A stretch of DNA of 64,000 nucleotides from Candidatus Uhrbacteria bacterium (GCA_016187515.1 JACPJN010000007.1:140336-204335); one strand, 5' to 3'. Numbered from the stretch's first letter, positions 21,548-61,562 are shown. Notes: a model not told the origin generated them from the letters alone. Translations and numbers: made by a program.

Positions 21548-21590
21548 CCCTTTTGGGATGCTTCTACCTTACATAAAACGCTACACCGTG

Positions 21591-22431: not shown

Positions 22432-23340
22432 CTAAATAATTTTATGGCGTCGCGCCAGCTCGGACATGGTGATTATTTTCCGGCCGCTTTGCAGGATATT
22501 CTCAATGGCCCGCTCCAAGTGGTGGATTTTTTCTTCCAAAGGCGTACCCAGCCGCTCTAGCGGAACTTTTCGTCCGGGATCAAGATCGCGGCGATCCATC
22601 AGATCCGCCGGATGGATTAAATAGTAAAACGCATCAATCTCCCGCAGGCAGGACTTAAGCAGTTGCAGATGCCGCTTCCAACCAATCATAAATCCCAGCG
22701 TATGCCAACAGGCGACTCGGAAGCGATTGGTCGGCAAGGGCAGGACGGTCACTCCTTGTTTCTGACATACTCCTCGCGTTCCAAACGCAAGCGTGAGCCA
22801 ATCCTTGCGCTTCAATATAGCAAAGAATTTTTTGTTTCCCAGATGATTGTACAGATTTTTTGCAATTACTGGAAACATGATCCATGAAGGAAATATGGAT
22901 GTATCATACTCATACCCGAGTTCGCTAAGCACTGTATAAAGTGTCCGAGACGTATTCCAGGCAGGTGAGATAAATCCTCTAGGCGCGCTCCCCGTAGTTT
23001 CTGCAATGGCATCGTGCGCGTGTTTCACATCTTCGTAGATCGCCGCGCGTGACATTGCGCCCAAATCCATCTGATGCAGCCAAGAATGGTTTCCTATCTC
23101 ATGTCCATCGCGTGCCCACGCGCGGACCCGCTCACGATTTTCGGGCTTTTCCAAATCCTTTCCCACCACATAAATACTGTATTTGAAATCATATTTGCGC
23201 GCGATCTGAAAAAAACGATCCGCGATTTGAAAAAAAGACGGGTCCGGGTATCCCGACGGCCATCCGTATGCCTCTCCAAGCGAGTCAAGATTCAAGCTAA
23301 TCGCGGCGTACTGCATACAATAGATCACTCCATTTAGCAA
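22432..23340 (-). CDS. polysaccharide deacetylase-like protein (CE4/NodB-related)
   Basis: HSWLH motif-2-like region. Family call is tentative. Confidence 0.45.
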   Translation of the reverse strand: MLNGVIYCMQYAAISLNLDSLGEAYGWPSGYPDPSFFQIADRFFQIARKYDFKYSIYVVGKDLEKPENRERVRAWARDGHEIGNHSWLHQMDLGAMSRAAIYEDVKHAHDAIAETTGSAPRGFISPAWNTSRTLYTVLSELGYEYDTSIFPSWIMFPVIAKNLYNHLGNKKFFAILKRKDWLTLAFGTRGVCQKQGVTVLPLPTNRFRVACWHTLGFMIGWKRHLQLLKSCLREIDAFYYLIHPADLMDRRDLDPGRKVPLERLGTPLEEKIHHLERAIENILQSGRKIITMSELARRHKII

Positions 23341-24082
23341 TGCTACAATCGTTCTTTTTTACATCCACGCGCGTCGGAAGGCCAGAATAACTAGATGGGA
23401 TATCCGGACGCGGGTTTTGATATTCTCCGCGCACAAGGCGCTCCACCGCGCGCGACGCAAGATCGGGGAAATCGCGAAACACTTGGATATAAAACCGCAG
23501 CATGGATTGGTTGCGAGCATATTCTTTCTGCACCAGGATTTTTCCGGCATCAATCTTCTCCTCTACCTGATGAAAGGTTACGCCAGTCGGCTGATTGTGC
23601 GCGTGCGCCCAAAAATACGGAAACAATCCGCGACAGGACGGCAACATGGCCGCGTGCTTGTTAATAATGCCGACTCGCGGCGCGCCAATAATTTCTTTTT
23701 TAAGCACCTGGCCCACGGTAATCAATACCACATCAATCTTATTATCTTTGATCCATTGCGTTACGGCAGGATCGTTGGGGGTATCGGCGGTATGCAGGGT
23801 TAGGCCGTGTTTATTCGACAACTGTCGCCAGGTTTTTATACCGGAGCATAACTGCACTAGACGAGTTTTAGACGCATACAATCCAAGAATCACAAAATTC
23901 CAAAACCCGAAAACTCGCCGGTACCATAATGAGATCCGCGCACCTTTGAATTTCCCCAGCTGATCCGGAAACACATACAATCCCACTACCCGATACTGCT
24001 TTTGCAACTCTGGGATGGCGCGCTTCCAGGCCGGAAACGCCCAAGTATAATCATTGGCTGTAAAAATGGCAAGGCGGATCAT
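23297..24082 (-). CDS. formyltransferase-domain protein (Fmt/ArnA-N-like; putative sugar N-formyltransferase)
   Basis: HAAMLPSCRG (SLLPxxRG-like) and GVTFHQVEEKIDAGKIL motifs. Start set at MIRLAIF to avoid overlap with the next gene. Confidence 0.6.
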   Translation of the reverse strand: MIRLAIFTANDYTWAFPAWKRAIPELQKQYRVVGLYVFPDQLGKFKGARISLWYRRVFGFWNFVILGLYASKTRLVQLCSGIKTWRQLSNKHGLTLHTADTPNDPAVTQWIKDNKIDVVLITVGQVLKKEIIGAPRVGIINKHAAMLPSCRGLFPYFWAHAHNQPTGVTFHQVEEKIDAGKILVQKEYARNQSMLRFYIQVFRDFPDLASRAVERLVRGEYQNPRPDIPSSYSGLPTRVDVKKNDCSIAKWSDLLYAVRRD

Positions 24083-24099
24083 GTCTAAACAGTTCACGA

Positions 24100-25251
24100 T
24101 TAAAATCCAAAAAATCCTAAAATCTTTTTCGCTGTCCGTTTCATCTTGGAAGGCCAAAATACTCTTCGACTGCCATCCGTATAAACACTCTTCTCTAACA
24201 CCATGGTGCGGTAGTATTCCAATGTTTGTTTTTCTTTAACGTATTCTTTAAAAAATGGGGAGTGATCAGCAATAATAAGATCAAGCTCTTTCGGACTTTC
24301 CGTAAATGCGGCGTGATTTTCAAAATAGTGCGCGTCCAGGGTGCGATAGTAAATACCGTTTTTTTTGATTACGGCCCAAATATTGATGGTTTGATTCACC
24401 CGCGGCGCAAAATCAGTATGCTCCTCCGCGATAAGATAGGGCCGCTCCTTTTCGGAAAACAAAGAAATTCCGTCAATATTCTCCGCCACCGGCGCCCCGA
24501 TAATTTCGCACAGCGTCGGATAAATATCCATGACGGATGAAAACCGTTCGCTGACGACCAGGCCGCGGTCAGCTTTCTTTCTGTGCAATAAAAAAGTATT
24601 GGTGCGAGCTTTATTTAAAAGCAGATAAGCCGGTTCTTTCTTAAACTCGCGGCGCAGCTTAAAGCCATGATCGGAGAAAATCAGAAGGTGATCAAAGTCG
24701 TCAACATTCAGATCGCGGCGAAGTATCCGTAGGGAATTCGCGACTTTTTGATGTCCTTTTTTGACAAACCGCGGATAATAATCAAAATCATCCATCGCAT
24801 AGTGAAAATCTGCTAAAGAAATATAGACCAAACTTTTATCTTTAATGTCCAATCCTTGTAAAAATTTCTCCAGATTCAGATCTGTATTGTGTACTCCTCT
24901 GGAGTTAAATCCCGGGGGGAATACCCCATTCCTTTTTTCATTCGGATTATTGAAAAAAGATAAATTAAAGCCATGTTCCAACAAAATTTCCAGGATATTT
25001 TTTCCGTCATTTTTCAAAAAAAATCCCGGATATTTTATCCGTTTATCACAGCCATTTTTGTAAGGATACTTTCCTGACCAAACACACGCCAAACTCCTGG
25101 CCGTGTCCGGGGCCGGCGTAAAACAATTTCGATATAATGTCCCGCCGATCTTTTCAAATTCTTCATCCAGCGACCCCTTCTCCCGAGTGCGGTTCACGAC
25201 ATGCAGCATCTCCGGCCGCAGCATGTCTATAAAAATAATGAGAATCTTCAT
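24100..25251 (-). CDS. alkaline-phosphatase superfamily protein (sulfatase/phospho-headgroup transferase-like)
   Basis: IFIDMLRPEM N-terminal metal-site region and FSDHGF motif. AT-rich gene. Confidence 0.5.
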   Translation of the reverse strand: MKILIIFIDMLRPEMLHVVNRTREKGSLDEEFEKIGGTLYRNCFTPAPDTARSLACVWSGKYPYKNGCDKRIKYPGFFLKNDGKNILEILLEHGFNLSFFNNPNEKRNGVFPPGFNSRGVHNTDLNLEKFLQGLDIKDKSLVYISLADFHYAMDDFDYYPRFVKKGHQKVANSLRILRRDLNVDDFDHLLIFSDHGFKLRREFKKEPAYLLLNKARTNTFLLHRKKADRGLVVSERFSSVMDIYPTLCEIIGAPVAENIDGISLFSEKERPYLIAEEHTDFAPRVNQTINIWAVIKKNGIYYRTLDAHYFENHAAFTESPKELDLIIADHSPFFKEYVKEKQTLEYYRTMVLEKSVYTDGSRRVFWPSKMKRTAKKILGFFGF

Positions 25252-25940: not shown

Positions 25941-25943
25941 AAG

Positions 25944-27769: not shown

Positions 27770-27770
27770 A

Positions 27771-31789: not shown

Positions 31790-31868
31790 CCCCCTCTAAC
31801 TCCCCCTCCGGGAGGGGGAGAAATCGATTTTCCTCCCCTGCCCGAGGGGAGGTTAGGAGGGGTGGGAG
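31790..31868. repeat. composite CTCCCC-GGGGAG palindromic element copy e (nested perfect palindromes), overlapping the last codons and stop of the RmlD-like gene
   Basis: CTCCCCCT CCGG AGGGGGAG at 31801-31820 and CCTCCCCT GCCCG AGGGGAGG at 31832-31852, with outer CCCTCTAAC / GTTAGGAGGG arms. Confidence 0.65.
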
Positions 31869-32665
31869 AACTTTTTTAATTCCTCCACCGCTTCCTCCAT
31901 CGTCCTTCCATACGGAAACAACTTCTTCAACCCTTCATACTTCGTCGTAAGCACTCTCTCTACCGAACCACGATGATCTTCCATCCGTTCCACATTTACA
32001 TTTTTTTCAAACACCTTTTTAAACAGGCACAGTAAATCATATTTCGTAATCGGTTCATTAGGCGTGAAATGAAAAACTGACGCCTCAGCGCGCAAGTCCT
32101 CAAACCGGTCTTCGCGGATTATCTTCTCACAAAGCTGGGCAAATTGCAAGGTGGTTACGCCATTCCAGATATGGTTGGTAAAACCCTGCACAGTGGCACC
32201 CTCCGGCTGGGACAAAAACCACTCCAGAAGCCCTTTTTTCTTATTTGGACTGGGGCCAATGATGGAGGTGCGAATATTGATTACATTGGGCGCTTCAACC
32301 TCTCCCTTAATCTTACTTTTTCCGTACGCATCTTCAGCATCACACGGCGAATCTTCATCATATGGACCACTCTTGCCGGAAAACACTCCGTCGGTAGACA
32401 TGTGAATGATCCTTGCGCTAGTTGCCTTTGCTAGCCAATGTGGAAACTCTGCGTTCACTTTTTTCATCTTTTCTTCTTCACCGCCAGCCAATACGCCAAT
32501 GCAGTTGATCACATAATCGTAGTCATGCGTATCCGGGACATCATTTGCGGCATCAAAATCACTCGCATTCATTCCCTTCACCTTCCATGCTTTTTCCTGC
32601 GCCAACACCTTAAGCACCATGTGCCCGAGCATTCCGGTACTGCCGAGGACAAGAATTTTTTTCAT
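31853..32665 (-). CDS. NAD(P)-dependent sugar-nucleotide reductase (RmlD-like, dTDP-4-dehydrorhamnose reductase family)
   Basis: ILVLGSTGMLG N-terminus and RmlD-like fold pattern. Start trimmed to MKKILV. Confidence 0.55.
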   Translation of the reverse strand: MKKILVLGSTGMLGHMVLKVLAQEKAWKVKGMNASDFDAANDVPDTHDYDYVINCIGVLAGGEEEKMKKVNAEFPHWLAKATSARIIHMSTDGVFSGKSGPYDEDSPCDAEDAYGKSKIKGEVEAPNVINIRTSIIGPSPNKKKGLLEWFLSQPEGATVQGFTNHIWNGVTTLQFAQLCEKIIREDRFEDLRAEASVFHFTPNEPITKYDLLCLFKKVFEKNVNVERMEDHRGSVERVLTTKYEGLKKLFPYGRTMEEAVEELKKFSHPS

Positions 32666-32667
32666 AA

Positions 32668-32697
32668 CTCCCCTAACCCCTCTTATCTTAAGAGGGG
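32668..32697. repeat. CTCCCC-GGGGAG palindromic element copy f (CCCCTCTTA TCT TAAGAGGGG), intergenic
   Basis: Perfect 10-bp arms. Confidence 0.6.
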
Positions 32698-32702
32698 AAA
32701 AA

Positions 32703-33968
32703 TTATTCAGGTACAATTTTTACGTTCGGCAGCGGCACAATAAACTTTCCCCCGCGCGCCACATAATCCTGCCGCTTGTTTAATACCTCTTTCATAAAAC
32801 TCCACGCAAAAAGCAAGGCGTAGTCCGGAAATTTTCCCTGCTCGACATGCTCCCATGGAAAAATTTGAACATGGGTCCCTGGGGTATAAAATCCATGCTT
32901 AGCCGGCGCGTCGTCAACGACATAATCCAAATGCCGTCCATCAATCCCGCAATAATTCATCACCATGGTTCCACGGCCGGAAGCGCCATAGCCGATAATC
33001 ATTTTCCCCTCCGCTTTCAGCTTCTCGAGAAGATCCATCAGCGCGACCTTCGTGCTCTCAATCTTTTTTCCATACGCCATAAATGTTTCGGCCCGGTCGT
33101 AACCCTTCGCCAGCTCATCCCGTTCCATCGTCCGAACCGCTTCGGTTATCGCGCGACCGCCGCCTTTTTTTTGTCCGTAAAATCTTACCGCTCCGGAACG
33201 CACGCCCGGGGTGAATTTAATGTCAAAAATTTCCATCCCATGCCGGCCAAGAAAATTTTGCAACGACTTCAGCGAATAATAGTTACAGTGTTCATGGTAA
33301 ATCATGTCATATTGCATCTCCTCCATCAGCGTACCCAGATAATATACCTCAATCATCGCGACCCCATCATCTTTGAGAAGCTCGGCCACGCCCCTACCTA
33401 CGCTAACCATGTCATCAATATGCGCGAACGAAAAACTGGTGGTAATGGCATCGAATTGTCCGTACTGCGCGCGGATCCGCTTCGCCACTTCTTCATTAAA
33501 AAAATCATTGATAATCGTAAATCCTTCCTGCTTGACGGAGTTGACTACATTGGTGGCCGGATCAACTCCGACGGCTTTGACGCCCAGCGCCGCAAACGGT
33601 TTAAGCATTACGCCGTCATTGCAGCCGATTTCAAACACCGAGGGATTGGGGCGATTTTTTAGAAATCGCTCATGCGCTTCGCTCGCCCACTGCGCGCAAT
33701 GATCAACCAGGGTCTTGATTGCCGAGGAAAAATAAAAATAATCTTTAAACAGCGTTTCCGGGGGAATGGCTTGCGGAACCTGTACTAAGGTGCAGTCGCG
33801 GCAGAAAGACACATGCAACGGATAAAGTTTTTCATCCGCAAACTGATCTGGCTTCAAAAATCCGCCCGCCAGCGGCATATTCCCAAAATCAATAACTTTT
33901 ACCAAATTTGACCCTTTGCAACAGCGACAGGTAGTGTGATCAGTATAAGCTCCGATTTGTGGATTCAT
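32703..33968 (-). CDS. NDP-hexose C-methyltransferase (TylC3-like: Zn-ribbon + class I MT + C-methyltransferase C-domain)
   Basis: N-terminal CRCC...CRDC zinc ribbon, SAM-MT core (FEIGCNDG) and C-terminal C-MT domain. Confidence 0.65.
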   Translation of the reverse strand: MNPQIGAYTDHTTCRCCKGSNLVKVIDFGNMPLAGGFLKPDQFADEKLYPLHVSFCRDCTLVQVPQAIPPETLFKDYFYFSSAIKTLVDHCAQWASEAHERFLKNRPNPSVFEIGCNDGVMLKPFAALGVKAVGVDPATNVVNSVKQEGFTIINDFFNEEVAKRIRAQYGQFDAITTSFSFAHIDDMVSVGRGVAELLKDDGVAMIEVYYLGTLMEEMQYDMIYHEHCNYYSLKSLQNFLGRHGMEIFDIKFTPGVRSGAVRFYGQKKGGGRAITEAVRTMERDELAKGYDRAETFMAYGKKIESTKVALMDLLEKLKAEGKMIIGYGASGRGTMVMNYCGIDGRHLDYVVDDAPAKHGFYTPGTHVQIFPWEHVEQGKFPDYALLFAWSFMKEVLNKRQDYVARGGKFIVPLPNVKIVPE

Positions 33969-50368: not shown

Positions 50369-51394
50369 TCATTTTTTTATGCACGCGGTAACAATACGCC
50401 AAAGCCATGGGGGGGCGTCTGCTATGCGCACAATGCGAATGTGCCCGTCGCGTACGCGGATACCGGAGGAATCGGACTTGACCGCAGTGACGTATCTGCC
50501 GTGCAAATAGACGCCGCCAAACGCACGGATACGGCGCTCAATTTCCGCAACACTCAGCGCACGCGCATCATCTATAGTAGCAAACCGCTTCAATGCCTTG
50601 CATGAATAAGACGACGCCTCACCGTGCTGCGGCGTACCCGCACTCCTGCTCGTGATAAGGGTGAGGAGTTCCGGCACGCGCGTCGCTGCCAAAAGCACCT
50701 TTTTCCATTCATGCGCATACCATCCTTCTCTACGATCAACCGGTACTGCGTCCTGAATAAGCACATTGCCTGCATCAAGCCCCTCGGTCAGGATATGGAA
50801 GGTAAAACCGGTATGTGTTTGTTGATGGTAGAGTGAAAGCGATGTCGCGCCAATGCCGCGGTAACGCGGGAGCAGCGAGTTATGGTAATTAACACCATAC
50901 GCAAAACGCGCAAGCAGGGCAGCAGAAAGTATCTGGTGATTTGCGACAGAAAAAATAATGTTTGCGTGCGCGGTCAACAGAGCCAGCATGTCAGGCATAT
51001 CTATCCGCCCTCCCTTTTTGTTCAGCACCGGAATGCCGTGTTGTTCGGCAAGCTGCTTAAGCGGTGTATAGCTGCGAAACTGCTTATCAGGATTGAGGGA
51101 GCGTTTCACCCACTGCTCTACGCTCGCGCAACGGCTACGTAACCGCTGAACGCTCCGCATCGGGACCGACTCTACCACACAGCCAATGCTGATATCGGTG
51201 CGCTCTCGCGTCACCGCGATCAACGATTCCAAGAGCACGGAACTAATAAATGACTGCGCGGTTCCGATGACGGCAATGCGATCCGCAACACCATCATGTC
51301 CCGGTGCAACATTGTACTTATAAGCCATACGGCGAGACATAATTCTGCGAATGAAAGGGAAAAAGACACTACTCATATGATAAAAGCATATCAA
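50369..51394 (-). CDS. formyltransferase-domain protein (second copy)
   Basis: HNSLLPRYRG and GFTFHILTEGLDAGNVLIQ motifs. Confidence 0.6.
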   Translation of the reverse strand: MICFYHMSSVFFPFIRRIMSRRMAYKYNVAPGHDGVADRIAVIGTAQSFISSVLLESLIAVTRERTDISIGCVVESVPMRSVQRLRSRCASVEQWVKRSLNPDKQFRSYTPLKQLAEQHGIPVLNKKGGRIDMPDMLALLTAHANIIFSVANHQILSAALLARFAYGVNYHNSLLPRYRGIGATSLSLYHQQTHTGFTFHILTEGLDAGNVLIQDAVPVDRREGWYAHEWKKVLLAATRVPELLTLITSRSAGTPQHGEASSYSCKALKRFATIDDARALSVAEIERRIRAFGGVYLHGRYVTAVKSDSSGIRVRDGHIRIVRIADAPPWLWRIVTACIKK

Positions 51395-51415: not shown

Positions 51416-51931
51416 TCAATCAAATCGTGTAATTGATAATGATCTATCATATTTTGACAACCCGATTTTTGCAAAACGCCGCAACGCAGACATAAGGCGC
51501 TCATTAAACATACCGTGCTGTACCAGCCAATCGCGCCGGCAGACTACAGCCGAAGTGGCAAACGGACAATTGCGAAAAAGCTGACGAGGTACAATCATGC
51601 CTTGATACCTCTTTGCAAGATTGAGTGGCTCTTCGCGCCCATCTAAAAATCGATGATATTGATCGTGGTAGAAAAAATTGGTCCGGGGGTACTGTGAATC
51701 AGAACACATCCTTTGGCTGCTCCGATAAACCTCGCGATAATTGCGCTCCAAATCTTTCTCGTTTGGCACAGGATATGCAAAACCGATGCACTCTTCCGGA
51801 CACCAGTATAGACCCATTGACTGCGAAAATATCCCTTGATCTTCATTAAAAGGAGACCAGTACTGATCTATAAATCGCGCGGGCCTTACACAAAAACGGC
51901 AAGCAATGGAGGGAATGGTTTGGGTGGGCAT
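51416..51931 (-). CDS. hypothetical Cys4 (putative zinc-ribbon) protein
   Basis: CRFC...CPEEC. Start trimmed to MPTQ to avoid overlap with the divergent 51998 gene. Confidence 0.3.
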   Translation of the reverse strand: MPTQTIPSIACRFCVRPARFIDQYWSPFNEDQGIFSQSMGLYWCPEECIGFAYPVPNEKDLERNYREVYRSSQRMCSDSQYPRTNFFYHDQYHRFLDGREEPLNLAKRYQGMIVPRQLFRNCPFATSAVVCRRDWLVQHGMFNERLMSALRRFAKIGLSKYDRSLSITRFD

Positions 51932-51997
51932 AACGTAACTATTGGCAAAAATTTCTAAAGATGGTAGTATCGTATAGAATACGATATTATTCTTTCT

Positions 51998-52921
51998 ATG
52001 TCCAGTCAGATTAACCTGGCACTTATTGGTAGGGGACACTGGGGAAAGGTATACGAAAGAACGATCACCGGCCTTACGCAAGTGACCGCCGGAGGTTATT
52101 CCGTCTCCCTCCTCCAACACATCTTTGGGAAAGATTACAAAGAGGCATTCACGCACCCCCAAATGCGTAACGTGGATGGAATCATTGTGGCCTCCTCAAC
52201 CTCCGCGCACTATGAAATTGCCGCCCACCTTTTCTCACGGGGTTTCCGCAATCTGCTTATTGAAAAACCGCTGACGAGAACGTATGAAGAAGCGCAGAAA
52301 CTGCAAGAGCTTGCGCAAAAGCATCCTGAGGCGATTCTAATGGTGGACCATACCTTGCTTTACGATCCGGCGGTACGCCTGATGAAAGAGCAGGCAACGC
52401 ACACCATAGGCACGATCAAACACGTCAATTATACGAGTCTAAAAACGCCCCTGATTGAGGGCAACACGATCATTCCGGACGCGGGCTCGCCCCCAATATA
52501 TCTTTTTTTGGATATTGCCGGAGCTTCTCCTTTAAGCATTGCCGCAAAGCCAAAAGAAAACGACAACGTGGAGATTACGGTTGAATTCAAGAATGGGATG
52601 CGTGCGGTTGCCAAAATCGGTAGTGTCTATTCCGAGCGAAAAAGAGAGATCGTGTTTTCCGGCGAGCATGGTACGCTTATGCTTACAGAATTTATGAACC
52701 CGCGGGAGATCATTTTTGCCGATCTGAATGGGAACCAAACACCCTTAGCGTTTCCGACCGACCGCACCGCGCTTGAGGGCGCACTCTTGGAGTTTGCTGA
52801 GTGCATCGCAGATAAAAAACAGCCGGCCACACCGTTTTCCGCCGGAGCTGAGGTGGTCAAAATGATTGAACTGGCGGAACAATCATTTAAAAAAGGGGGT
52901 GAACCCGTACTATGCATATGA
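51998..52921 (+). CDS. Gfo/Idh/MocA family oxidoreductase (sugar-nucleotide keto-reductase/dehydrogenase)
   Basis: LALIGRGHWGKVY Rossmann N-terminus and EKPL motif. Confidence 0.72.
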   Translation: MSSQINLALIGRGHWGKVYERTITGLTQVTAGGYSVSLLQHIFGKDYKEAFTHPQMRNVDGIIVASSTSAHYEIAAHLFSRGFRNLLIEKPLTRTYEEAQKLQELAQKHPEAILMVDHTLLYDPAVRLMKEQATHTIGTIKHVNYTSLKTPLIEGNTIIPDAGSPPIYLFLDIAGASPLSIAAKPKENDNVEITVEFKNGMRAVAKIGSVYSERKREIVFSGEHGTLMLTEFMNPREIIFADLNGNQTPLAFPTDRTALEGALLEFAECIADKKQPATPFSAGAEVVKMIELAEQSFKKGGEPVLCI

Positions 52922-54063
52922 GAGTGCCATTCAACATTCCCTACCTAACCGGTAAAGAAGAAGAATATATCCTAGCGGCGTTAAAATCGCGCGCGCACTG
53001 CGGTAATAATGAATTTTCCAAACGCTGCATCGCGTTCATGAAAAAAAAATATGGTTTCAGCGAAGTGTTTTTAAATACCTCTTGTTCCACCGCTATGGAA
53101 ATGGGGGCAATGCTCGCCGGGGTAGGCCCGGGAGATGAAGTCATTCTACCTTCCTACACTTTTAGCTCTACCGCAAACGCTGTACTTCGACAAGGTGCGC
53201 GTCCGGTATTTTGCGAGATAGAACCGGACACCATGAATATTGATGTCGCTAAAATCAATGCTCTTATTACTAAAAAAACAAAGATGATTATCCCAGTTGA
53301 TTACGCAGGAATTCCCTGTGATATAGATCCTATCATGGAGATTGCGCACAGACATAATCTCATTGTGATGGTTGATGCGGCACAATCGTTTCACTCTTTT
53401 TATAAAGGAAAGCCCGCAGCAGCGATTCCCGATCTTGCGGCATTTAGTTTTCATGAAACAAAAAATGTTACCTGCGGCGAAGGGGGCGCGCTAGTGGTAA
53501 ATAAACCGGAATGGATTGAACGTGCACATTTCTTGCAGGAAAAAGGTACTGACCGCAAACTCGTACTTGACGGTGTAAAAAACAAATACCAATGGGTGGA
53601 TATTGGTTCAAGCTTTCTGCTTTCCGATATTCTCGCCGCGATGCTTTTGGCGCAAATTGAGGAAGTGGAAAATATGGTGCAGGAAAGAGCAAAGTTGACT
53701 TTTGCCTATTACACACTTCTTGAACCATATGAAAAAGCGGGTCGTATCACGATTCCACACCCACCTGCCCATACCGAGGTAAATCATCATGCGTTTTTTG
53801 TCATCTTTGACATCAAAGAAAACCGCCAACGATTCCTCGCACTCCTGCGCGAAAAAGAAATCTCGGCCTATATCGGCTATGTACCTTTACATTCCTCCAC
53901 CATGGGGCTACGTTTAGGTTACAAACCTGAAGACCTTCCTTTAACTGAGGATATCGGCTCGCGCATTGTACGCTTACCGTTCTACACAGATTTGCCGAAA
54001 AACGGCATGGATTACTGTATAACCGAGATGAAAAACGTACTTTCCACGCTTTATGAACATTGA
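52912..54063 (+). CDS. DegT/DnrJ/EryC1/StrS family sugar aminotransferase
   Basis: FSFHETKNVTCGEGG PLP-lysine motif. Confidence 0.85.
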   Translation: MHMRVPFNIPYLTGKEEEYILAALKSRAHCGNNEFSKRCIAFMKKKYGFSEVFLNTSCSTAMEMGAMLAGVGPGDEVILPSYTFSSTANAVLRQGARPVFCEIEPDTMNIDVAKINALITKKTKMIIPVDYAGIPCDIDPIMEIAHRHNLIVMVDAAQSFHSFYKGKPAAAIPDLAAFSFHETKNVTCGEGGALVVNKPEWIERAHFLQEKGTDRKLVLDGVKNKYQWVDIGSSFLLSDILAAMLLAQIEEVENMVQERAKLTFAYYTLLEPYEKAGRITIPHPPAHTEVNHHAFFVIFDIKENRQRFLALLREKEISAYIGYVPLHSSTMGLRLGYKPEDLPLTEDIGSRIVRLPFYTDLPKNGMDYCITEMKNVLSTLYEH

Positions 54064-55582
54064 CGCGGATACCGCAAAAAACGCGATTGATCGCCTTTAT
54101 GATGAACTCCGACAGATTCTTCATTTTTCCGGCGAATCAAAAAATGTGGATTTTTATCTGTCAGCTCTGATCAAATACAATCCGTTTAACGGTACGGAGG
54201 AAATTGAGGGGTGGCTTCGTTCTCTAAACAGCCAGCAATATTTTTCCGTCCAGCAAATTCCACTGCGAGAATTACGCCAATGGAGTTTTCATCCGACTAC
54301 CGGCAACCTTGAACATGCCTCCGGCGGATTTTTCAGCATTCGCGGCTTGAAAGTTAGGACTAACATCGGGTCAGTCACGGAATGGTCCCAACCGATTATT
54401 TACCAGCCGGATATTGGAATTTTAGGGATAATTACAAAAAAATTTCATGGCATCTTATATTTTTTGATACAAGCTAAGGCGGAACCAGGCAACCTGAACA
54501 ACTATCAGCTTTCCCCGACCGTCCAGGCCACGCGCAGCAACTACACGCGCCTGCATGGTGGAAAATCGACTTTGTATCTTGAGCATTTTTTAGGCGACCA
54601 GCCAGCACACGTGCTGATTGATCAATTGCAATCCGAGCAAGGCGCCAGGTTTTTCTGCAAACGCAATCGGAATATGATCGTGCGTCTTCGTGATGATGAA
54701 AACATCGAGCTGGGACCATACCACCGTTGGGTAACCTTAGGGCAACTGCACACCCTTCTGCAAAAAAATAATGTTGTAAACATGGACACGCGTTCGGTTA
54801 TTTCGGAAATTAATTTTGCTCCAGAACGCGTATCCTCGCTTGAGCCGGTGCGTGCCTCTGCCCTGCGTGCCGCACTCGAGGCCTCACCGCTGGTTCAAAA
54901 ACCGATCTTTGATCTGGCCGTGTCGCTCATGATTTCTCTGCATCCAAACACTACGCCTCTCCATACTACGGAAGAGCTTCTGCAAAAAATAACCAGAGAA
55001 AAATGCAAAATCATTCTGGAGCGTCAGCTTATTCCTCTAAATGAAGTTACCCACTGGCCCCAAACAGCAAATGAAATTTTCCACGAAAAGAAAAAGTATT
55101 TCTCAATTATCGGCGTGCAGATTCAGGCGCATGATCGCGAAGTTACGTCCTGGGACCAGCCCATCGTTAAGCAGCATCACGCTGGAATTATTGGTTTTAT
55201 TGCCAAAGAGATAAACGGAGTTATTCACTTCCTGGTTCAACTAAAAATGGAAAGCGGGGTTATGGATCTTCTGGAGATGGCGCCGACTGTCCAATGCATT
55301 ACTGACAACTATACTCCGGACGACATGCCGCTCTACACTCAAAAATTCCTCAATCATGAAGGCTGCGCCATTATCGCTGATTCCTACCAGTCCGAGGAGG
55401 GGGGAAGATTTTTTCAAGAATCAAATCACAACATTGTCTTGCTCGCCGATCAAATCTTCTCCGAAGCCGAGCCGCCATTTTTTATGTGGATGAGTCTGAA
55501 ACAGCTCAAAGAATTTATCCAATTCAGCAACTTCATCAACGTGGAGGCGCGAAGCTTATTAGCGTGCCTAAAAATGATATGA
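54053..55582 (+). CDS. NDP-hexose 2,3-dehydratase (EvaA/TylX3-like; duplicated Nudix-like halves)
   Basis: Internal duplication with QSEQGARFF and QSEEGGRFF. Size and pattern typical of NDP-hexose 2,3-dehydratases. Confidence 0.75.
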   Translation: MNIDADTAKNAIDRLYDELRQILHFSGESKNVDFYLSALIKYNPFNGTEEIEGWLRSLNSQQYFSVQQIPLRELRQWSFHPTTGNLEHASGGFFSIRGLKVRTNIGSVTEWSQPIIYQPDIGILGIITKKFHGILYFLIQAKAEPGNLNNYQLSPTVQATRSNYTRLHGGKSTLYLEHFLGDQPAHVLIDQLQSEQGARFFCKRNRNMIVRLRDDENIELGPYHRWVTLGQLHTLLQKNNVVNMDTRSVISEINFAPERVSSLEPVRASALRAALEASPLVQKPIFDLAVSLMISLHPNTTPLHTTEELLQKITREKCKIILERQLIPLNEVTHWPQTANEIFHEKKKYFSIIGVQIQAHDREVTSWDQPIVKQHHAGIIGFIAKEINGVIHFLVQLKMESGVMDLLEMAPTVQCITDNYTPDDMPLYTQKFLNHEGCAIIADSYQSEEGGRFFQESNHNIVLLADQIFSEAEPPFFMWMSLKQLKEFIQFSNFINVEARSLLACLKMI

Positions 55583-56904
55583 CTGCTCCCCGCAAAATAC
55601 GCCTCGGGCTTTTTATTTATACGCCGATGATTGGCGGCGCCGAACTTTATTTCAAAGACCTGCTTTGGAACCTTGACCGAGAGCAATTCACTGTGACTTT
55701 GTTTTGCGAACCATGGGACGAATTTGTCAGCTACTTAGACCTGCCCCATTGTCCGCCAGTTACCATTTGTACAATTAAAATGCGCGAAGTGGGCGGACAC
55801 TACGGCGCCAAGGAATTGACGGATGGGGCTGCGCCAAAGCAGTTGCGCTGGTCGGAAAAGAAATTATTGCGAGCCATCACCGCGCAAAAAAAACTTCGCT
55901 CCCCACTCTTGAAAATTCCGGGAAGAATTGTAAGGGCGTTCATGCATTATGGATTCATGGTTTCAAATACCGCGCGCTTATTTGCCGCATTCCGTAAAAA
56001 TCCGATTGACGTGCTGCATGTGATAAATGGAGGGTATCCGGGAGCGCAAAGCGCCCAGCTTGCCGCATTTGTGGCAAAACGCGCCGGATGCCAAAGAGCG
56101 CTCATGAGTGTCTGTAACACTCCGGTTCCCTACCATTTCCCAAAGACATACGAGCGACTACTCGACCGCTTGGTCCGGCGTTATTTTGACGCCGTTATTA
56201 TAGCTGGGGACTTTATAGGTAAACTTTTGATTGACCTCCGCGGATTTGATCGGACGCTCTTAAAAAAAATTCCGGAGGGAGTGGCTAGTCCGGAAGAATA
56301 CGGAGCCGCGCTTTACGGAGCGCCGACGCAGGGTCAGCGCTTAGAAAACCCAACCATAGCCATGGTAGCCGGTTTCCTTCCCCACAAGGGCCACCGCTTC
56401 TTACTGGAAGCCCTGGCGCTATTGCGCTCGGAATTCCCTAGCACCCGCGCAACGCTTATTGGCGACGGTCCAATACTCGGCGAAACGCGAGAGCTAGCTA
56501 ATCGCCTTGGTGTTTCAGATGCAGTCATTTTTGAGGGATTCCGTCCACTCAAAGAAATGCTGCAGATCGTGAATACCGCGGATATGTTGGTTCACCCCTC
56601 ACTTATGGAAGGAATGCCTTACGTCATTCTCCATGCTATGAGTTTAGGTAAACCGGTTATTGCAACACCTGTTGGTAGTATACCGGAAGTCGTCCTGCAT
56701 GAAAAAACCGGTTTTATTATTCCAGTAAATAACAGCGTCGCGCTCGCAAACGCCATACGCGGACTACTAACTAATGCGAATCGCGCCAAGGAAATGGGGA
56801 CTGCGGGGAAAAAAAGATACGATGAAAATTTTACTATTACAGTCATGGTACAGCGTCATACTGACCTTTATAAAACCCTCTACCAATCTAATCCTCGCCG
56901 CTAA
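55579..56904 (+). CDS. GT4 family glycosyltransferase
   Basis: EGMPYVILHAMSLGKPVIAT GT-B motif. ATGA overlap with the upstream gene. Confidence 0.72.
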   Translation: MTAPRKIRLGLFIYTPMIGGAELYFKDLLWNLDREQFTVTLFCEPWDEFVSYLDLPHCPPVTICTIKMREVGGHYGAKELTDGAAPKQLRWSEKKLLRAITAQKKLRSPLLKIPGRIVRAFMHYGFMVSNTARLFAAFRKNPIDVLHVINGGYPGAQSAQLAAFVAKRAGCQRALMSVCNTPVPYHFPKTYERLLDRLVRRYFDAVIIAGDFIGKLLIDLRGFDRTLLKKIPEGVASPEEYGAALYGAPTQGQRLENPTIAMVAGFLPHKGHRFLLEALALLRSEFPSTRATLIGDGPILGETRELANRLGVSDAVIFEGFRPLKEMLQIVNTADMLVHPSLMEGMPYVILHAMSLGKPVIATPVGSIPEVVLHEKTGFIIPVNNSVALANAIRGLLTNANRAKEMGTAGKKRYDENFTITVMVQRHTDLYKTLYQSNPRR

Positions 56905-56918
56905 AATTGCGCCAAACC

Positions 56919-57485
56919 CTACCCGGCCTTAATTTCCCAAAACCCTGTTCCAAAGTATTCCGGCGGCAAACGGAACTCGTCACAGACCTTCGAATTGGAA
57001 TTGAACTGCTCGGTAACAAAATAAATCAAACTCATCGGGCGCTCATACGGATTCGCCACGCCATGCGCTACGCCATTGGGAATCCGCACCATCCGCGCGC
57101 GTCCGGCACCCAAAACAAAGCGCATCACTACTCCTTCGGTAGCTGAACCTGAACGAATATCCTTCAAGCCAACCAATAGCCGGTCATGTGAGGGGACGAA
57201 CCAAAAATCAACTTGCTTTTTATGAAGATGAGTTGCTTTTATCGCGCCGGGTAAGACTACAGAGTAATTAATCTGCCGCACTTCCAAACCGGAAGCACCC
57301 TGTAAATGCCCTGCATCAAGCCGACCCATTTCCAAAAATGACCCACCGTCGTCGGCAAACTCCTTCAAATCAATAACCTCGACTCCGCCAATTCGTTGAG
57401 TGGGTGTATAATCTTGTTTTGTTAATTGTGCTTCTATATCGCTATCAAACATATTTGAGATGGTTACGTTTTCATTATACTGCAT
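56919..57485 (-). CDS. RmlC-like cupin (NDP-sugar 3,5-epimerase, EvaD-like)
   Basis: About 188 aa cupin with THLHKKQVDFWFV and conserved His/Lys pattern. Confidence 0.55.
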   Translation of the reverse strand: MQYNENVTISNMFDSDIEAQLTKQDYTPTQRIGGVEVIDLKEFADDGGSFLEMGRLDAGHLQGASGLEVRQINYSVVLPGAIKATHLHKKQVDFWFVPSHDRLLVGLKDIRSGSATEGVVMRFVLGAGRARMVRIPNGVAHGVANPYERPMSLIYFVTEQFNSNSKVCDEFRLPPEYFGTGFWEIKAG

Positions 57486-61065: not shown

Positions 61066-61542
61066 ATGGCTAATGCACGGCATCATCCTTATCTGGAGTA
61101 CCTATTGATCAAACTTCCTTGGTTTGAAAAATTCCCCACCCACTTTATTTTTTTCGCATTTTTCGGAGGGATTGCGACTGCAGTGGATTGGAGCGTATTC
61201 TATGTAACTCATCTGCGGCTTGGCTGGCACTATCTTCAAAGCGTGACCTTGACCTTCATTTTGGGCACACTGATAAGTTTTTCCGGCAATAAGTATCTTA
61301 ATTTCCAAGATTCCTCAAAAAAAATAATCCGTCAATATGTAATATTTGCCTCTTTGGCGGCAGTAGGTCTACTGATCACTTACGGACTGCTTACAATATT
61401 TATTGAGTATCTGCACTTGCACGCGATGGTCGCTCGCGCCATTTCAACCTTCATCGTGCTTTTCTACAACTACTTTTCGCAAAAACACATTACTTTCAAT
61501 AAACGATTCACTCATAACCCCTCCCCCCTCCCCTTACCTTAA
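61066..61542 (+). CDS. gtrA: GtrA-family membrane protein (polyprenol-linked sugar translocase-like)
   Basis: 4 TM helices with GtrA-like pattern. C-terminal PSPLPLP tail and stop come from a palindromic element. Confidence 0.6.
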   Translation: MANARHHPYLEYLLIKLPWFEKFPTHFIFFAFFGGIATAVDWSVFYVTHLRLGWHYLQSVTLTFILGTLISFSGNKYLNFQDSSKKIIRQYVIFASLAAVGLLITYGLLTIFIEYLHLHAMVARAISTFIVLFYNYFSQKHITFNKRFTHNPSPLPLP

Positions 61543-61550
61543 GGGGAGGA
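61517..61550. repeat. CTCCCC-GGGGAG palindromic element copy j (CCTCCCCTTA CCT TAAGGGGAGG), supplies the last codons and stop of gtrA
   Basis: Perfect 10-bp arms. Confidence 0.6.
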
Positions 61551-61562
61551 GAATGATGGAGT

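What the first reader, a model, noticed from the sequence alone, without database searches (positions are those of the whole stretch)
51998..57485. Antibiotic-like 3-amino-2,3,6-trideoxy (vancosamine-type) sugar pathway in a surface-glycan locus
Nearby enzymes match the Eva/Tyl-type route to branched 3-amino-2,3,6-trideoxyhexoses, possibly N-formylated:
- NDP-hexose 2,3-dehydratase (EvaA-like, duplicated Nudix halves).
- DegT-family aminotransferase.
- Gfo/Idh/MocA keto-reductase.
- RmlC-like 3,5-epimerase.
- At 31853-33968, an RmlD-like reductase and a TylC3-like C-methyltransferase.
- Two formyltransferases.

This chemistry is mostly known from glycopeptide and macrolide producers. Here it is wired to a GT4 transferase in a Wzx/Wzy glycan cluster.
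Basis: established knowledge. Interest (0 to 1): 0.6.

Follow-up and report, generated by a model that had tools for sequence, protein, structure and literature searches.

The report
2-deoxy amino-sugar cassette in CPR bacterium

Summary
The genes are real and lie at the stated coordinates. A translationally coupled + strand operon encodes four enzymes:
- a Gfo/Idh/MocA oxidoreductase;
- a DegT aminotransferase;
- an EvaA-type NDP-hexose 2,3-dehydratase (PF03559 x2, E=3e-140, both catalytic Glu kept);
- a GT4 glycosyltransferase.

A weak RmlC-like cupin lies convergent to this operon. The C-methyltransferase, the RmlD-like reductase and the two formyltransferases are also confirmed at family level.

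The "3-amino/vancosamine-type" reading is not supported.
- The aminotransferase is WecE-type, which acts at C-4. It scores above NCBIfam's curated cut-off, and PDB WecE gives 1e-97 against about 1e-38 to 1e-31 for C-3 enzymes.
- In related cassettes from other lineages, the orthologous aminotransferase and dehydratase pair with a KijD10-type sugar 3-ketoreductase.

The logic is therefore 2,3-dehydration, C-3 reduction, then C-4 amination. This gives a dTDP-4-amino-2,4,6-trideoxyhexose, which is N-demethyl-vicenisamine/kedarosamine-type chemistry. The sugar may be N-formylated and is handed to the GT4.

The window's own ketoreductase belongs to a small, divergent Gfo subfamily, so its role is inferred from context. 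RmlA/RmlB and a recognisable Wzx are absent from the window. This is a new variant of a known pathway in an unusual host, and I rate it moderately interesting.

The parts
51998..52921 (+). Gfo/Idh/MocA oxidoreductase (307 aa), the inferred NDP-3,4-diketo-2,6-dideoxyhexose 3-ketoreductase. First gene of the operon.
   Evidence: PF01408/PF02894. GRGHWG Rossmann motif, EKP Lys90 and DAGSPPIY motif. AF2 model pLDDT 91 with a Gfo fold; best match in both directions is GnnA, a UDP-GlcNAc 3-dehydrogenase. Not KijD10-like by sequence. The subfamily has only 61 members and they travel with the dehydratase. KijD10-type Gfo genes occupy the same place in L010, L011 and L002.
52912..54063 (+). WecE-type DegT aminotransferase (383 aa), the inferred C-4 aminotransferase.
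   Evidence: PF01041 6e-83. NCBIfam PRK11706 459 bits against a cut-off of 375. PDB WecE 6blg/4piw 1e-97/7e-96, against C-3 enzymes QdtB 3e-38 and DesV 3e-31. PLP lysine in SFHETK, K184. Orthologs at 58-79% identity lie next to dehydratase orthologs in L009-L014. The start overlaps the Gfo stop.
54053..55582 (+). EvaA-type NDP-hexose 2,3-dehydratase (509 aa, duplicated Nudix-like halves).
   Evidence: PF03559 3e-140 over two stretches. EvaA 4j7g 9e-98 over two domains. EvaA E139/E190 are conserved as E144/E195; their catalytic role is described in PMC8987622. The start overlaps the aminotransferase stop by 11 nt.
55579..56904 (+). GT4 glycosyltransferase (441 aa), the inferred transferase for the product sugar.
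   Evidence: PF00534 1e-35, PF13692 1e-33. ATGA start/stop overlap with the dehydratase. A 63% ortholog follows the dehydratase in L012. No TM segments.
56919..57485 (-). RmlC-like cupin (188 aa), a possible 3,5- or 5-epimerase. Its membership of the pathway is uncertain.
   Evidence: PF00908 40.7 bits (cut-off 27), but the rmlC equivalog scores 28.9 against 155.75. PDB best hit is 3ejk at 2e-5. Last gene of a convergent operon. Absent from the L012 flank.
50369..51394 (-). Formyltransferase FT1 (341 aa), a candidate sugar N-formyltransferase. Transcribed divergently from the cassette.
   Evidence: PF00551 2e-17. Motif N169-x-H171-x-SLLPRYRG plus D207. Not Fmt: 72.8 bits against a cut-off of 201.5. 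PDB: fmt 1e-14, GDP-perosamine formyltransferase 4e-13. Unrelated formyltransferases accompany the cassette in L011 and L002.
51416..52162 (-). Chimeric remnant ORF, probably not a gene: a methyltransferase N-terminus joined to a GT2 fragment, filling the divergent 603-bp spacer.
   Evidence: No Pfam or NCBIfam hit. Not called in most independent contigs. tblastn matches to the L012 333-aa methyltransferase-like gene (54% over 71 aa) and to GT2 fragments.
32703..33968 (-). Sugar 3-C-methyltransferase (421 aa, TylC3/MtmC/TcaB9 type). Possible branch enzyme; the link to the cassette is unproven.
   Evidence: PF08421 + PF13489 + PF08484. MtmC 4rv9 3e-77, TcaB9 2e-72, 5t6b 7e-72, all full length. 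Same-family C-methyltransferases lie within 10 kb of the cassette in L013 and L014.
31853..32716 (-). RmlD-like SDR (287 aa as listed; an ATG at residue 18 is the likelier start). Possible 4-ketoreductase partner of the C-methyltransferase.
   Evidence: PF04321 2e-18. rmlD equivalog 56.7 bits against 224. YGKSK catalytic motif. Same operon as the C-methyltransferase.
23297..24157 (-). Second formyltransferase FT2 (286 aa), overlapping a downstream PF01522 deacetylase gene (22432-23340).
   Evidence: PF00551 2e-14. Variant motif NKHAAMLPSCRG plus IDAG. Deacetylase PF01522 1e-16.

Best explanation
The + strand operon Gfo-aminotransferase-dehydratase-GT4 makes and transfers a nucleotide-activated 4-amino-2,4,6-trideoxyhexose for a cell-envelope glycan of a Candidatus Uhrbacteria (CPR) bacterium.

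Proposed steps:
1. dTDP-4-keto-6-deoxyglucose is supplied by RmlA/RmlB encoded outside the window (inferred).
2. The EvaA-type 2,3-dehydratase removes the C-2 hydroxyl and gives dTDP-3,4-diketo-2,6-dideoxyhexose. Family membership and catalytic residues are shown; activity is inferred.
3. The Gfo/Idh/MocA enzyme reduces the C-3 ketone (inferred from context).
4. The WecE-type aminotransferase aminates C-4. The enzyme type is shown; the regiochemistry on this substrate is inferred.
5. The amine may be N-formylated by the divergently transcribed FT1, perhaps only transiently, as in the Arn pathway (weakly inferred).
6. The translationally coupled GT4 adds the sugar to a growing glycan (inferred).

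This is the gene logic of vicenisamine and kedarosamine (2,3-dehydratase, 3-ketoreductase, 4-aminotransferase) without the N-methylase. It is not the Eva/vancosamine logic (2,3-dehydratase, 3-aminotransferase, C-methyltransferase, epimerase, 4-ketoreductase).

The distant C-methyltransferase and RmlD-like pair may draw on the same 4-keto-2,6-dideoxy intermediate to make a mycarose-like neutral sugar, or may C-methylate before amination. Stereochemistry at C-3, C-4 and C-5 cannot be predicted.
For: - Dehydratase: PF03559 x2 at 3e-140. EvaA 9e-98, with catalytic E139/E190 kept as E144/E195 (roles from PMC8987622).
- Aminotransferase: above the curated WecE-type cut-off (459 against 375). The top three PDB groups all act at C-4: WecE 1e-97, ArnB-like 5e-52, perosamine synthase 6e-47. 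C-3 enzymes score 3e-38 or worse. It has Lys184 and not the His of 3-dehydrases.
- Operon: start and stop codons overlap at all three junctions.
- Conservation: aminotransferase orthologs (58-79% identity) lie beside dehydratase orthologs (54-72%) in all six related loci examined, L009-L014. A Gfo gene is beside them in every case.
- Ketoreductase role: in L011 that Gfo is KijD10-type (3rbv, 6e-62). L010's is 46% identical to it and L002's 34%. The L010 and L011 aminotransferases are also WecE-type above the cut-off.
- The window-type Gfo subfamily has only 61 members. At least 18 of them have the same longest-contig length as one of the top dehydratase hits, which I take as a proxy for sharing a contig.
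- Its fold is closest to sugar C-3 oxidoreductases such as GnnA.
- Formyltransferases lie beside dehydratase-Gfo-aminotransferase sets in three independent lineages: the window, L011 and L002.
- The published vicenisamine gene logic is 2,3-dehydratase, 3-ketoreductase, 4-aminotransferase, N-methylase (PMC8944477).
- dTDP-rhamnose genes are conserved in many CPR classes (PMC9166423).
- The surrounding genes are glycan-assembly genes: GT2/GT4, a WecA-like initiating transferase, a weak Wzy-like protein, DUF2079, GtrA and a PgfS/ArnC-like GT2.
Against: - No biochemistry exists for any of these proteins. Aminotransferase regiochemistry is inferred from homology.
- The window's Gfo is not detectably KijD10-like, so its 3-ketoreductase role rests on gene context and on replacement of a KijD10-type gene at the same position.
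- RmlA/RmlB are absent from the window. The only dehydratase-like SDR (13684-14652) carries the decarboxylase-type TSEIYG motif.
- FT1 is not conserved with the cassette in L009, L012, L013 or L014. Its closest homolog sits at a contig edge.
- Each formyltransferase shares an operon with a PF01522 deacetylase, so formylation may be transient or may act on another sugar.
- The acceptor of the GT4 is unknown.
- The CPR assignment rests on the NCBI label of identical proteins.
Confidence: 0.6

Rival explanations
1. The aminotransferase aminates C-3 of the 3,4-diketo product, as EvaB and DnrJ do, and the Gfo enzyme (or the RmlD-like SDR) reduces C-4. This gives a 3-amino-2,3,6-trideoxyhexose of the vancosamine/ristosamine/daunosamine type. 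It might be C-3-methylated by the TylC3-like enzyme and N-formylated.
For: All Eva-like families are present somewhere in the window: dehydratase, DegT aminotransferase, C-methyltransferase, cupin and RmlD-like SDR. Two of the closest structural homologs of the C-methyltransferase, TcaB9 and the 5t6b enzyme, come from 3-amino-sugar pathways (the pathway attribution is my own knowledge). The set dehydratase + aminotransferase + one reductase is also stoichiometrically complete under this model.
Against: The aminotransferase is WecE-type, above a curated cut-off, and is about 60 orders of magnitude closer in E-value to C-4 than to C-3 aminotransferases. Orthologous aminotransferases pair with a bona fide KijD10-type 3-ketoreductase in L010 and L011, which removes the C-3 ketone. 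Characterised Gfo-family deoxysugar reductases act at C-3, and known 4-ketoreductases are SDRs (established knowledge). The C-methyltransferase and RmlD-like genes lie 18 kb away, in another operon.
Confidence: 0.12
2. A branched or uncoupled model. The dehydratase and Gfo make dTDP-4-keto-2,6-dideoxyhexose, which is finished as a neutral 2,6-dideoxy sugar, olivose- or mycarose-like, through the C-methyltransferase and the RmlD-like 4-ketoreductase. The WecE-type aminotransferase performs its canonical reaction on dTDP-4-keto-6-deoxyglucose and gives Fuc4N/Qui4N, which is then N-formylated.
For: The aminotransferase passes the WecE equivalog cut-off. MtmC, the best homolog of the C-methyltransferase, makes D-mycarose from a 4-keto-2,6-dideoxy sugar (the molecule name is as deposited). 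C-methyltransferases recur near the cassette in L013 and L014. Branched deoxysugar pathways are known (PMC8944477).
Against: The aminotransferase is sandwiched between Gfo and the dehydratase with overlapping codons. It stays beside the dehydratase in all six related loci. Several of those loci (L009, L012) show no SDR 4-ketoreductase or C-methyltransferase within the flanks read (8-10 kb), so the neutral-sugar branch would be incomplete there.
Confidence: 0.15
3. A GnnA/GnnB- or WbpB/WbpE-like pair. The Gfo enzyme oxidises C-3 of a nucleotide sugar and the aminotransferase aminates that position, independently of the dehydratase.
For: The best NCBIfam and fold matches of the Gfo enzyme are UDP-GlcNAc 3-dehydrogenases, though all below cut-off or generic.
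Against: The aminotransferase is far from WbpE-type enzymes (2e-34, against 1e-97 for WecE). The trio with the dehydratase is conserved and translationally coupled. A 3-dehydrogenase is redundant after a 2,3-dehydratase has already created the C-3 ketone.
Confidence: 0.03
4. The sugar decorates a secreted or membrane small molecule, such as a glycolipid or natural product, and not a surface polysaccharide or glycoprotein.
For: Every characterised 2,3-dehydratase pathway feeds a secondary metabolite (PMC8987622). The GT4 acceptor is unknown.
Against: No PKS, NRPS or other scaffold genes were found in the 64 kb window. The neighbours are polymer-assembly genes: a WecA-like transferase, a Wzy-like protein, GT-C-like membrane proteins, GtrA/GT2, and many GT2/GT4 genes. 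Relatives sit beside Wzx, Wzy, PMT_2 or ABC-transporter genes.
Confidence: 0.1

Closest known systems
Vicenisamine pathway (VinD 2,3-dehydratase, VinE 3-ketoreductase, VinF 4-aminotransferase, VinG N-methylase) and the related kedarosamine and N-demethyl-vicenisamine routes of actinomycetes
   Same: The same three-step logic from dTDP-4-keto-6-deoxyglucose: 2,3-dehydration, C-3 ketoreduction, C-4 transamination. The product is a 4-amino-2,4,6-trideoxyhexose (gene logic from PMC8944477). Relatives L009, L013 and L014 carry a small methyltransferase near the dehydratase: directly after it in L013 and L014, and one gene further on, on the opposite strand, in L009.
   Different: The host is a CPR bacterium and the destination is an envelope glycan through a GT4. 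The aminotransferase is WecE-type; its relationship to VinF was not tested. The ketoreductase belongs to a divergent Gfo subfamily and is not KijD10/VinE-like. There is no N-methylase, only a truncated methyltransferase remnant, and a formyltransferase is adjacent.
   Same: An EvaA-type 2,3-dehydratase with conserved catalytic glutamates. A TcaB9/EvaC-family C-methyltransferase, an RmlC-like cupin and an RmlD-like SDR exist elsewhere in the window.
   Different: No EvaB-type C-3 aminotransferase. An extra Gfo reductase that the Eva route lacks. The C-methyltransferase and reductase are in a different operon 18 kb away.
KijD10 (kijanimicin) and SpnN/OleW-type Gfo/Idh/MocA sugar 3-ketoreductases
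   Same: The same superfamily, with the EKP lysine and the D-A-G motif. The gene holds the same position in the cassette as the KijD10-type genes of L010, L011 and L002.
   Different: No detectable specific sequence relationship. KijD10 is absent from PDB hits even with a 23-sequence profile and from the top 50 fold matches.
WecE (dTDP-4-keto-6-deoxy-D-glucose 4-aminotransferase of enterobacterial common antigen)
   Same: Scores above the curated PRK11706 cut-off. E=1e-97 to the WecE structures. SFHETK PLP-lysine motif.
   Different: Below the TIGR02379 cut-off (409.9 against 434.85). Embedded in a 2-deoxysugar cassette, so its likely substrate is the 2-deoxy analogue.
ArnA/ArnB/ArnC/ArnD/ArnT (Ara4N) logic
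   Same: The window holds comparable pieces: formyltransferases paired with PF01522 deacetylase-family genes, an ArnC/PgfS-like polyprenyl-phosphate GT2, GtrA, a UXS/ArnA-type decarboxylase and multi-TM proteins. This suggests formylation could be a transient handle.
   Different: None of the hits reaches an Arn equivalog cut-off. The aminotransferase is WecE-type and not ArnB-type. The pieces are scattered over 50 kb.

Membership tests
NDP-hexose 2,3-dehydratase (EvaA family, PF03559) | Two tandem Nudix-like Hexose_dehydrat domains | tested here: met
   PF03559 E=3e-140, two stretches. Two domains align to EvaA residues 37-246 and 256-461.
NDP-hexose 2,3-dehydratase (EvaA family, PF03559) | Pocket-A catalytic glutamates (EvaA E139, E190) | tested here: met
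   They align to E144 (QAKAE) and E195 (LQSEQG). Their roles are described in PMC8987622.
NDP-hexose 2,3-dehydratase (EvaA family, PF03559) | Converts dTDP-4-keto-6-deoxyglucose to the 3,4-diketo-2,6-dideoxy sugar | not testable with these tools
   Needs an enzyme assay.
WecE-type dTDP-4-keto-6-deoxyhexose C-4 aminotransferase | Score above the curated family cut-off | tested here: met
   NF008687/PRK11706 scores 459.1 against 375. TIGR02379 scores 409.9 against 434.85, just below.
WecE-type dTDP-4-keto-6-deoxyhexose C-4 aminotransferase | PLP-binding lysine, as opposed to the His of 3-dehydrases | tested here: met
   SFHETK, K184. The motif assignment comes from general knowledge of DegT enzymes.
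WecE-type dTDP-4-keto-6-deoxyhexose C-4 aminotransferase | Amination at C-4 of the actual (2-deoxy) substrate | not testable with these tools
   Inferred from homology and from pairing with KijD10-type 3-ketoreductases in L010 and L011.
EvaB/DnrJ/TylB/DesV-type C-3 aminotransferase (needed for a vancosamine-type sugar) | Closest characterised relatives are C-3 aminotransferases | tested here: not met
   The best C-3 enzymes in the PDB are QdtB at 3e-38 and DesV (2oga) at 3e-31. WecE gives 1e-97, ArnB-like 5e-52 and perosamine synthase 6e-47.
KijD10-type NDP-sugar 3-ketoreductase | Specific sequence similarity to KijD10 | tested here: not met
   No KijD10 hit with the single sequence, with the 23-sequence profile at 1e-6, or among the top 50 fold matches. 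The L011 cassette Gfo does match, at 6e-62.
Gfo/Idh/MocA oxidoreductase superfamily | N-terminal Rossmann domain, C-terminal alpha/beta domain and the EKP lysine | tested here: met
   PF01408 and PF02894 above cut-offs. GRGHWG and E89-K90-P91 are invariant across the subfamily. AF2 pLDDT 91, Foldseek E about 1e-20.
TylC3/MtmC/TcaB9 sugar C-3 methyltransferase | Zn-binding N-domain, SAM domain and C-methyltransferase C-domain, with full-length similarity to characterised members | tested here: met
   PF08421 2.5e-21, PF13489 1.5e-22, PF08484 3e-45. MtmC 3e-77 and TcaB9 2e-72 over residues 10-420.
TylC3/MtmC/TcaB9 sugar C-3 methyltransferase | Acts in the same pathway as the 2,3-dehydratase cassette | tested here: inconclusive
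   It lies 18 kb away in another operon. Same-family C-methyltransferases occur within 10 kb of the cassette in L013 and L014, but not in L009 or L012.
RmlC-type dTDP-sugar 3,5-epimerase | Family score and catalytic His/Tyr/Asp | tested here: inconclusive
   PF00908 scores 40.7 against 27, which is met. The TIGR01221 equivalog scores 28.9 against 155.75, which is not met. PDB hits are 2e-5 or weaker. Catalytic residues could not be mapped without a reference alignment.
Sugar N-formyltransferase (N10-formyl-THF dependent) | Asn-x-His, SLLP loop and catalytic Asp; not Fmt or PurN | tested here: met
   FT1 has N169-Y-H171-N-SLLPRYRG and D207. The fmt model scores 72.8 against 201.5 and PurN 46.3 against 150. 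The substrate sugar was not testable.
Wzx/Wzy-dependent polysaccharide locus | Recognisable Wzx flippase and Wzy polymerase | tested here: inconclusive
   Wzy_C scores 22.2 bits, below its cut-off of 31.7, on the protein at 42887-44332 (7 TM-like segments). No Polysacc_synt hit was found. A 14-TM protein without a family (38369-39955) is only a candidate.
dTDP-sugar pathway entry (RmlA/RmlB) | Glucose-1-P thymidylyltransferase and dTDP-glucose 4,6-dehydratase present | tested here: not met
   Not present in the window. The SDR at 13684-14652 has TSEIYG, the UXS/ArnA type, and its best PDB hit is UXS1 at 7e-56. The nucleotidyltransferase at 25944-26690 is far below the RmlA cut-offs. The rest of the genome was not available.

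The most novel reading that the evidence does not exclude
Uhrbacteria, and many other uncultured bacteria that carry the same cassette, display on their envelope a sugar never reported from any surface glycan: a 4-amino (possibly 4-formamido, or in relatives 4-methylamino) 2,4,6-trideoxyhexose. It would be made with a previously unrecognised Gfo-family 3-ketoreductase clade. If so, true 2-deoxy amino sugars would be a widespread feature of environmental bacterial surfaces and not a speciality of actinomycete antibiotics.
Probability: 0.4. Interest if true: 0.6.

Novelty: new variant of a known kind. Interest (0 to 1): 0.45.

Why it matters
2,3-Dehydratase pathways are described in the literature only from antibiotic and other secondary-metabolite clusters, and EvaA is the single well-studied enzyme (PMC8987622). 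This window shows a compact, conserved cassette of dehydratase, ketoreductase and C-4 aminotransferase, wired to a glycosyltransferase inside a large envelope-glycan locus of a reduced-genome CPR bacterium. Thousands of homologs exist in other uncultured lineages.

If the prediction holds, it would do three things:
- extend 2-deoxy amino sugars to cell-surface glycans;
- define a new clade of sugar 3-ketoreductases;
- give glycoengineers a short, soluble four-gene route to a 4-amino-2,4,6-trideoxyhexose.

It also shows that a CPR organism, generally regarded as metabolically minimal, invests heavily in exotic surface chemistry (this sugar, C-methyl sugars, phosphonates). That is relevant to its episymbiotic lifestyle and to phage and host recognition.

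Tried and rejected
- I looked for RmlB in the window. The only candidate SDR (13684-14652) is UXS/ArnA-type: it has TSEIYG and its best PDB hit is UXS1. Rejected.
- I tested whether the window's Gfo is KijD10-like by single sequence, by profile and by fold. All three were negative. Its role therefore rests on context.
- I tested whether the 248-aa ORF at 51416-52162 is a pathway gene. It is a chimeric remnant. Rejected.
- I tried to link FT1 to the cassette through co-occurrence. FT1 has only 10 detectable relatives. The closest sits at a contig edge and the next is in an unrelated context. Inconclusive.
- The genome-contig scan with the dehydratase returned only two distant loci. The organism's own genome is not among the GTDB representatives, or its sequence did not match the search patterns.
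- The listing of cluster members gave no further taxon names for close relatives, so I make no claim that the cassette is CPR-wide.
- Promoter and terminator scans were not above shuffled expectation. There is one promoter-like site, with an extended -10, ending 28 nt upstream of the Gfo start.
- Literature searches for this dehydratase family in CPR, O-antigens or polysaccharides found nothing specific.

Full report

Yes.

- 51998-52921 (+): Gfo/Idh/MocA oxidoreductase (PF01408 2e-12, PF02894 8e-8).
- 52912-54063 (+): DegT/DnrJ/EryC1 aminotransferase (6e-83).
- 54053-55582 (+): NDP-hexose 2,3-dehydratase. PF03559 matches twice, at E=3e-140.
  - The only PDB relative is EvaA (4j7g, 9e-98), and both halves align.
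  - The two glutamates whose mutation kills EvaA (E139 and E190; PMC8987622) are conserved as E144 and E195.
- 55579-56904 (+): GT4 glycosyltransferase. The listed ORF starts at a GTG at 55486, but independent gene calls on other contigs use the ATG at 55579, giving 441 aa.
- 56919-57485 (-): weak RmlC-like cupin. It passes the Pfam cut-off but falls far below the rmlC equivalog cut-off.
- 32703-33968 (-): genuine sugar C-methyltransferase. It has the Zn-binding, SAM and C-methyltransferase domains. Full-length matches are MtmC 3e-77 and TcaB9 2e-72.
- 31853-32716 (-): RmlD-like SDR, immediately downstream of the C-methyltransferase in the same operon.
- 50369-51394 (-) and 23297-24157 (-): the two formyltransferases.
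  - FT1 carries the canonical Asn-x-His, SLLP and Asp signature.

The four + strand genes overlap start-to-stop at every junction, so they form one translationally coupled operon.

**2. Organism and context.**

Proteins identical to the dehydratase and the Gfo enzyme are labelled Candidatus Uhrbacteria bacterium, on a 318-kb contig. The same cassette occurs on 12 Logan contigs. GC content is even across the locus.

The window is a very large glycan-assembly region. It contains:
- a WecA/MraY-like initiating transferase;
- many GT2 and GT4 genes;
- DUF2079 and other multi-TM proteins;
- an AsnB-like amidotransferase and a heparinase II/III-like protein;
- FemAB and GNAT acyltransferases and deacetylases;
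- GtrA plus a PgfS/ArnC-like polyprenyl-phosphate GT2;
- a complete phosphonate (PEP mutase) module.

There are no PKS or NRPS genes.

The 'Wzx/Wzy' label is not established. Wzy_C scores below its cut-off and no Wzx family was hit.

RmlA and RmlB are absent from the window. The one dehydratase-like SDR carries the decarboxylase-type TSEIYG motif, and its best match is UDP-xylose synthase. dTDP-rhamnose genes are reported as conserved in many CPR classes (PMC9166423), so a supply of dTDP-4-keto-6-deoxyglucose from elsewhere in the genome is plausible. It is not shown.

**3. What chemistry?**

The deciding question is where the amine goes.

- The aminotransferase scores 459 bits on NCBIfam's dTDP-4-amino-4,6-dideoxygalactose transaminase (WecE) model, whose cut-off is 375.
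- Its three best PDB groups all act at C-4: WecE 1e-97, ArnB-like 5e-52 and perosamine synthase 6e-47. The best C-3 enzymes are QdtB at 3e-38 and DesV at 3e-31.
- It has the PLP lysine (SFHETK, K184), so it is a transaminase and not a 3-dehydrase.

The comparative evidence points the same way.
- In six related loci (L009-L014), an aminotransferase ortholog (58-79% identity) lies directly beside a dehydratase ortholog (54-72%). A Gfo/Idh/MocA gene is always adjacent.
- In L011 that Gfo is a clear KijD10-type sugar 3-ketoreductase (3rbv, 6e-62). L010's is 46% identical to it.
- The L010 and L011 aminotransferases also pass the WecE cut-off.
- In a Psychroflexus locus (L002), a more distant dehydratase is followed by a KijD10-type Gfo, a DesI-like (C-4 type) aminotransferase, WbqC and a formyltransferase.

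The recurrent unit is therefore 2,3-dehydratase + 3-ketoreductase + C-4-type aminotransferase. This matches the published gene logic for vicenisamine (PMC8944477). It does not match the Eva/vancosamine logic, which uses a C-3 aminotransferase and has no Gfo reductase.

The predicted product is a dTDP-4-amino-2,4,6-trideoxyhexose. Its stereochemistry cannot be predicted.

**4. The window's Gfo enzyme.**

It is not KijD10-like by single sequence, by a 23-sequence profile, or by fold ranking.

It belongs to a small clade of 61 proteins among 5.8 billion. At least 18 of them have the same longest-contig length as one of the closest dehydratase homologs, which I take as a proxy for sharing a contig.

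It keeps the Rossmann motif, the EKP lysine and a D-A-G-x4-Y motif. It models confidently (pLDDT 91). Its best bidirectional structural match is the nucleotide-sugar C-3 dehydrogenase GnnA, and several other top hits are sugar C-3 oxidoreductases.

I read this as non-orthologous displacement of the 3-ketoreductase within the same superfamily. This is an inference from context and not a demonstrated activity.

**5. N-formylation, C-methylation and epimerisation.**

*Formylation.* FT1 is transcribed divergently from the cassette and looks catalytically competent. It is rare, however, with only 10 detectable relatives. It is absent from the flanks of L009, L012, L013 and L014.

Unrelated formyltransferases accompany the cassette in L011 and L002. 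Formylation of this class of sugar is therefore plausible and recurrent, but it is not proven here.

Each formyltransferase shares an operon with a PF01522 deacetylase-family gene. ArnC-like, GtrA and multi-TM genes are also nearby. Arn-style transient formylation is therefore possible.

*Methylation in relatives.* L013 and L014 have a small methyltransferase directly after the dehydratase. L009 has one a gene further on, on the opposite strand. L012 has a Cys-rich methyltransferase-like gene upstream of Gfo.

In the window that upstream gene survives only as a chimeric remnant at 51416-52162. The N-substituent may therefore differ between lineages.

*C-methylation.* The C-methyltransferase and RmlD-like pair is 18 kb away. 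Same-family C-methyltransferases recur within 10 kb of the cassette in L013 and L014, but not in L009 or L012. The pair may use the shared 4-keto-2,6-dideoxy intermediate to make a mycarose-like sugar. It may instead belong to another pathway.

*Epimerisation.* The cupin is too divergent to call, and it is not conserved with the cassette.

**6. Comparison with the known, and novelty.**

The closest known system is the vicenisamine/kedarosamine type of 4-amino-2,4,6-trideoxyhexose biosynthesis in actinomycete natural-product clusters. The differences are:
- a CPR host;
- coupling to a GT4 inside an envelope-glycan locus;
- a WecE-type aminotransferase;
- a divergent ketoreductase clade;
- a formyltransferase in place of the N-methylase.

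A 2022 review lists 2,3-dehydratases only from antibiotic pathways. My literature searches found no report of this family in CPR or in surface polysaccharides.

The homolog search nevertheless returned more than 7,500 proteins at E<=1e-30. Many come from uncultured non-actinomycete lineages, including Brocadiales, Hydrogenedentota, Sedimenticola, the FCB group and Bacteroidota.

I class this as a new variant of a known kind. It is solid as an observation and corrected in its chemistry. It is of moderate interest until the product is determined.

**7. Confidence.**

| Model | Confidence |
|---|---|
| C-4 amino, 2-deoxy model feeding an envelope glycan | 0.6 |
| Uncoupled or branched model (neutral 2,6-dideoxy sugar plus Fuc4N/Qui4N) | 0.15 |
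| GnnA/GnnB-like pair | 0.03 |
| Small-molecule destination (an orthogonal question) | 0.1 |

Noticed in passing
window 51416-52162 (-): The 248-aa ORF filling the divergent spacer between FT1 and Gfo is a chimeric remnant. Residues ~36-155 match the N-terminus of a Cys-rich, SAM-motif methyltransferase-like gene that is intact at the same position in L012 (6874-7875). Residues 158-226 match a GT2 fragment (75% to the L012 GT2, 48% to the window's own GT2 at 44345-45139). It looks like a rearrangement scar.
   Followed up: partly
window 24100-30550 (-): A phosphonate module: a PEP mutase fused to a nucleotidyltransferase (TIGR02320 394 bits, above its cut-off), a TPP-dependent decarboxylase, a class-V aminotransferase, a second nucleotidyltransferase, a methyltransferase and a sulfatase-family protein. 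This suggests an aminoethylphosphonate-type decoration of the glycan in a CPR bacterium.
   Followed up: no
window 22432-24157 (-), 13684-14652 (-), 61066-62504 (+): Arn-like pieces are scattered through the locus: FT2 overlapping a PF01522 deacetylase gene, a UXS/ArnA-type decarboxylase (TSEIYG), and GtrA plus a PgfS/ArnC-like polyprenyl-phosphate GT2 next to multi-TM proteins (57510-60967). Formylation may therefore be a transient step on a lipid-linked sugar.
   Followed up: partly
window 18855-19684 (-): A HepT-like RNase and a MNT nucleotidyltransferase, i.e. a toxin-antitoxin pair, are embedded in the middle of the glycan locus.
   Followed up: no
window 20001-22000: A local GC peak (0.575, against about 0.47-0.51 elsewhere). 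It has long overlapping ORFs on both strands (20540-21547 on the - strand and 20582-21691 on the + strand) with no Pfam hit.
   Followed up: no
window 11846-13687 (-): A 613-aa protein with 13 TM-like segments. It combines a WecA/MraY-type (PF00953) domain with a CoA_binding_3 / EPS sugar-transferase N-terminal-like region, which is an unusual architecture for an initiating transferase.
   Followed up: no
L009 10235-10840; L013 11536-12132; L014 11536-12333: In L013 and L014 a small class-I methyltransferase follows the dehydratase directly, where the window has the GT4. In L009 a GT2 follows the dehydratase and the methyltransferase comes next, on the opposite strand. These could be N- or O-methylated versions of the same sugar. 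The three methyltransferases are barely related to each other.
   Followed up: partly
L002 8698-18965 (Psychroflexus sp. MAG): A Bacteroidota polysaccharide locus in the order ABC transporter, 2,3-dehydratase, KijD10-type Gfo, DesI-like aminotransferase, WbqC, PurN-like formyltransferase, GT2s. It is an independent instance of the 2-deoxy, 4-amino, N-formyl gene logic.
   Followed up: partly
L013 17800-20502; L014 20062-21533: In relatives, the sugar C-methyltransferase is flanked by a small FdtA-like cupin, and in L013 also by a 352-aa dehydratase-family SDR. This suggests a separate C-methyl-sugar module that often shares a locus with the cassette.
   Followed up: no
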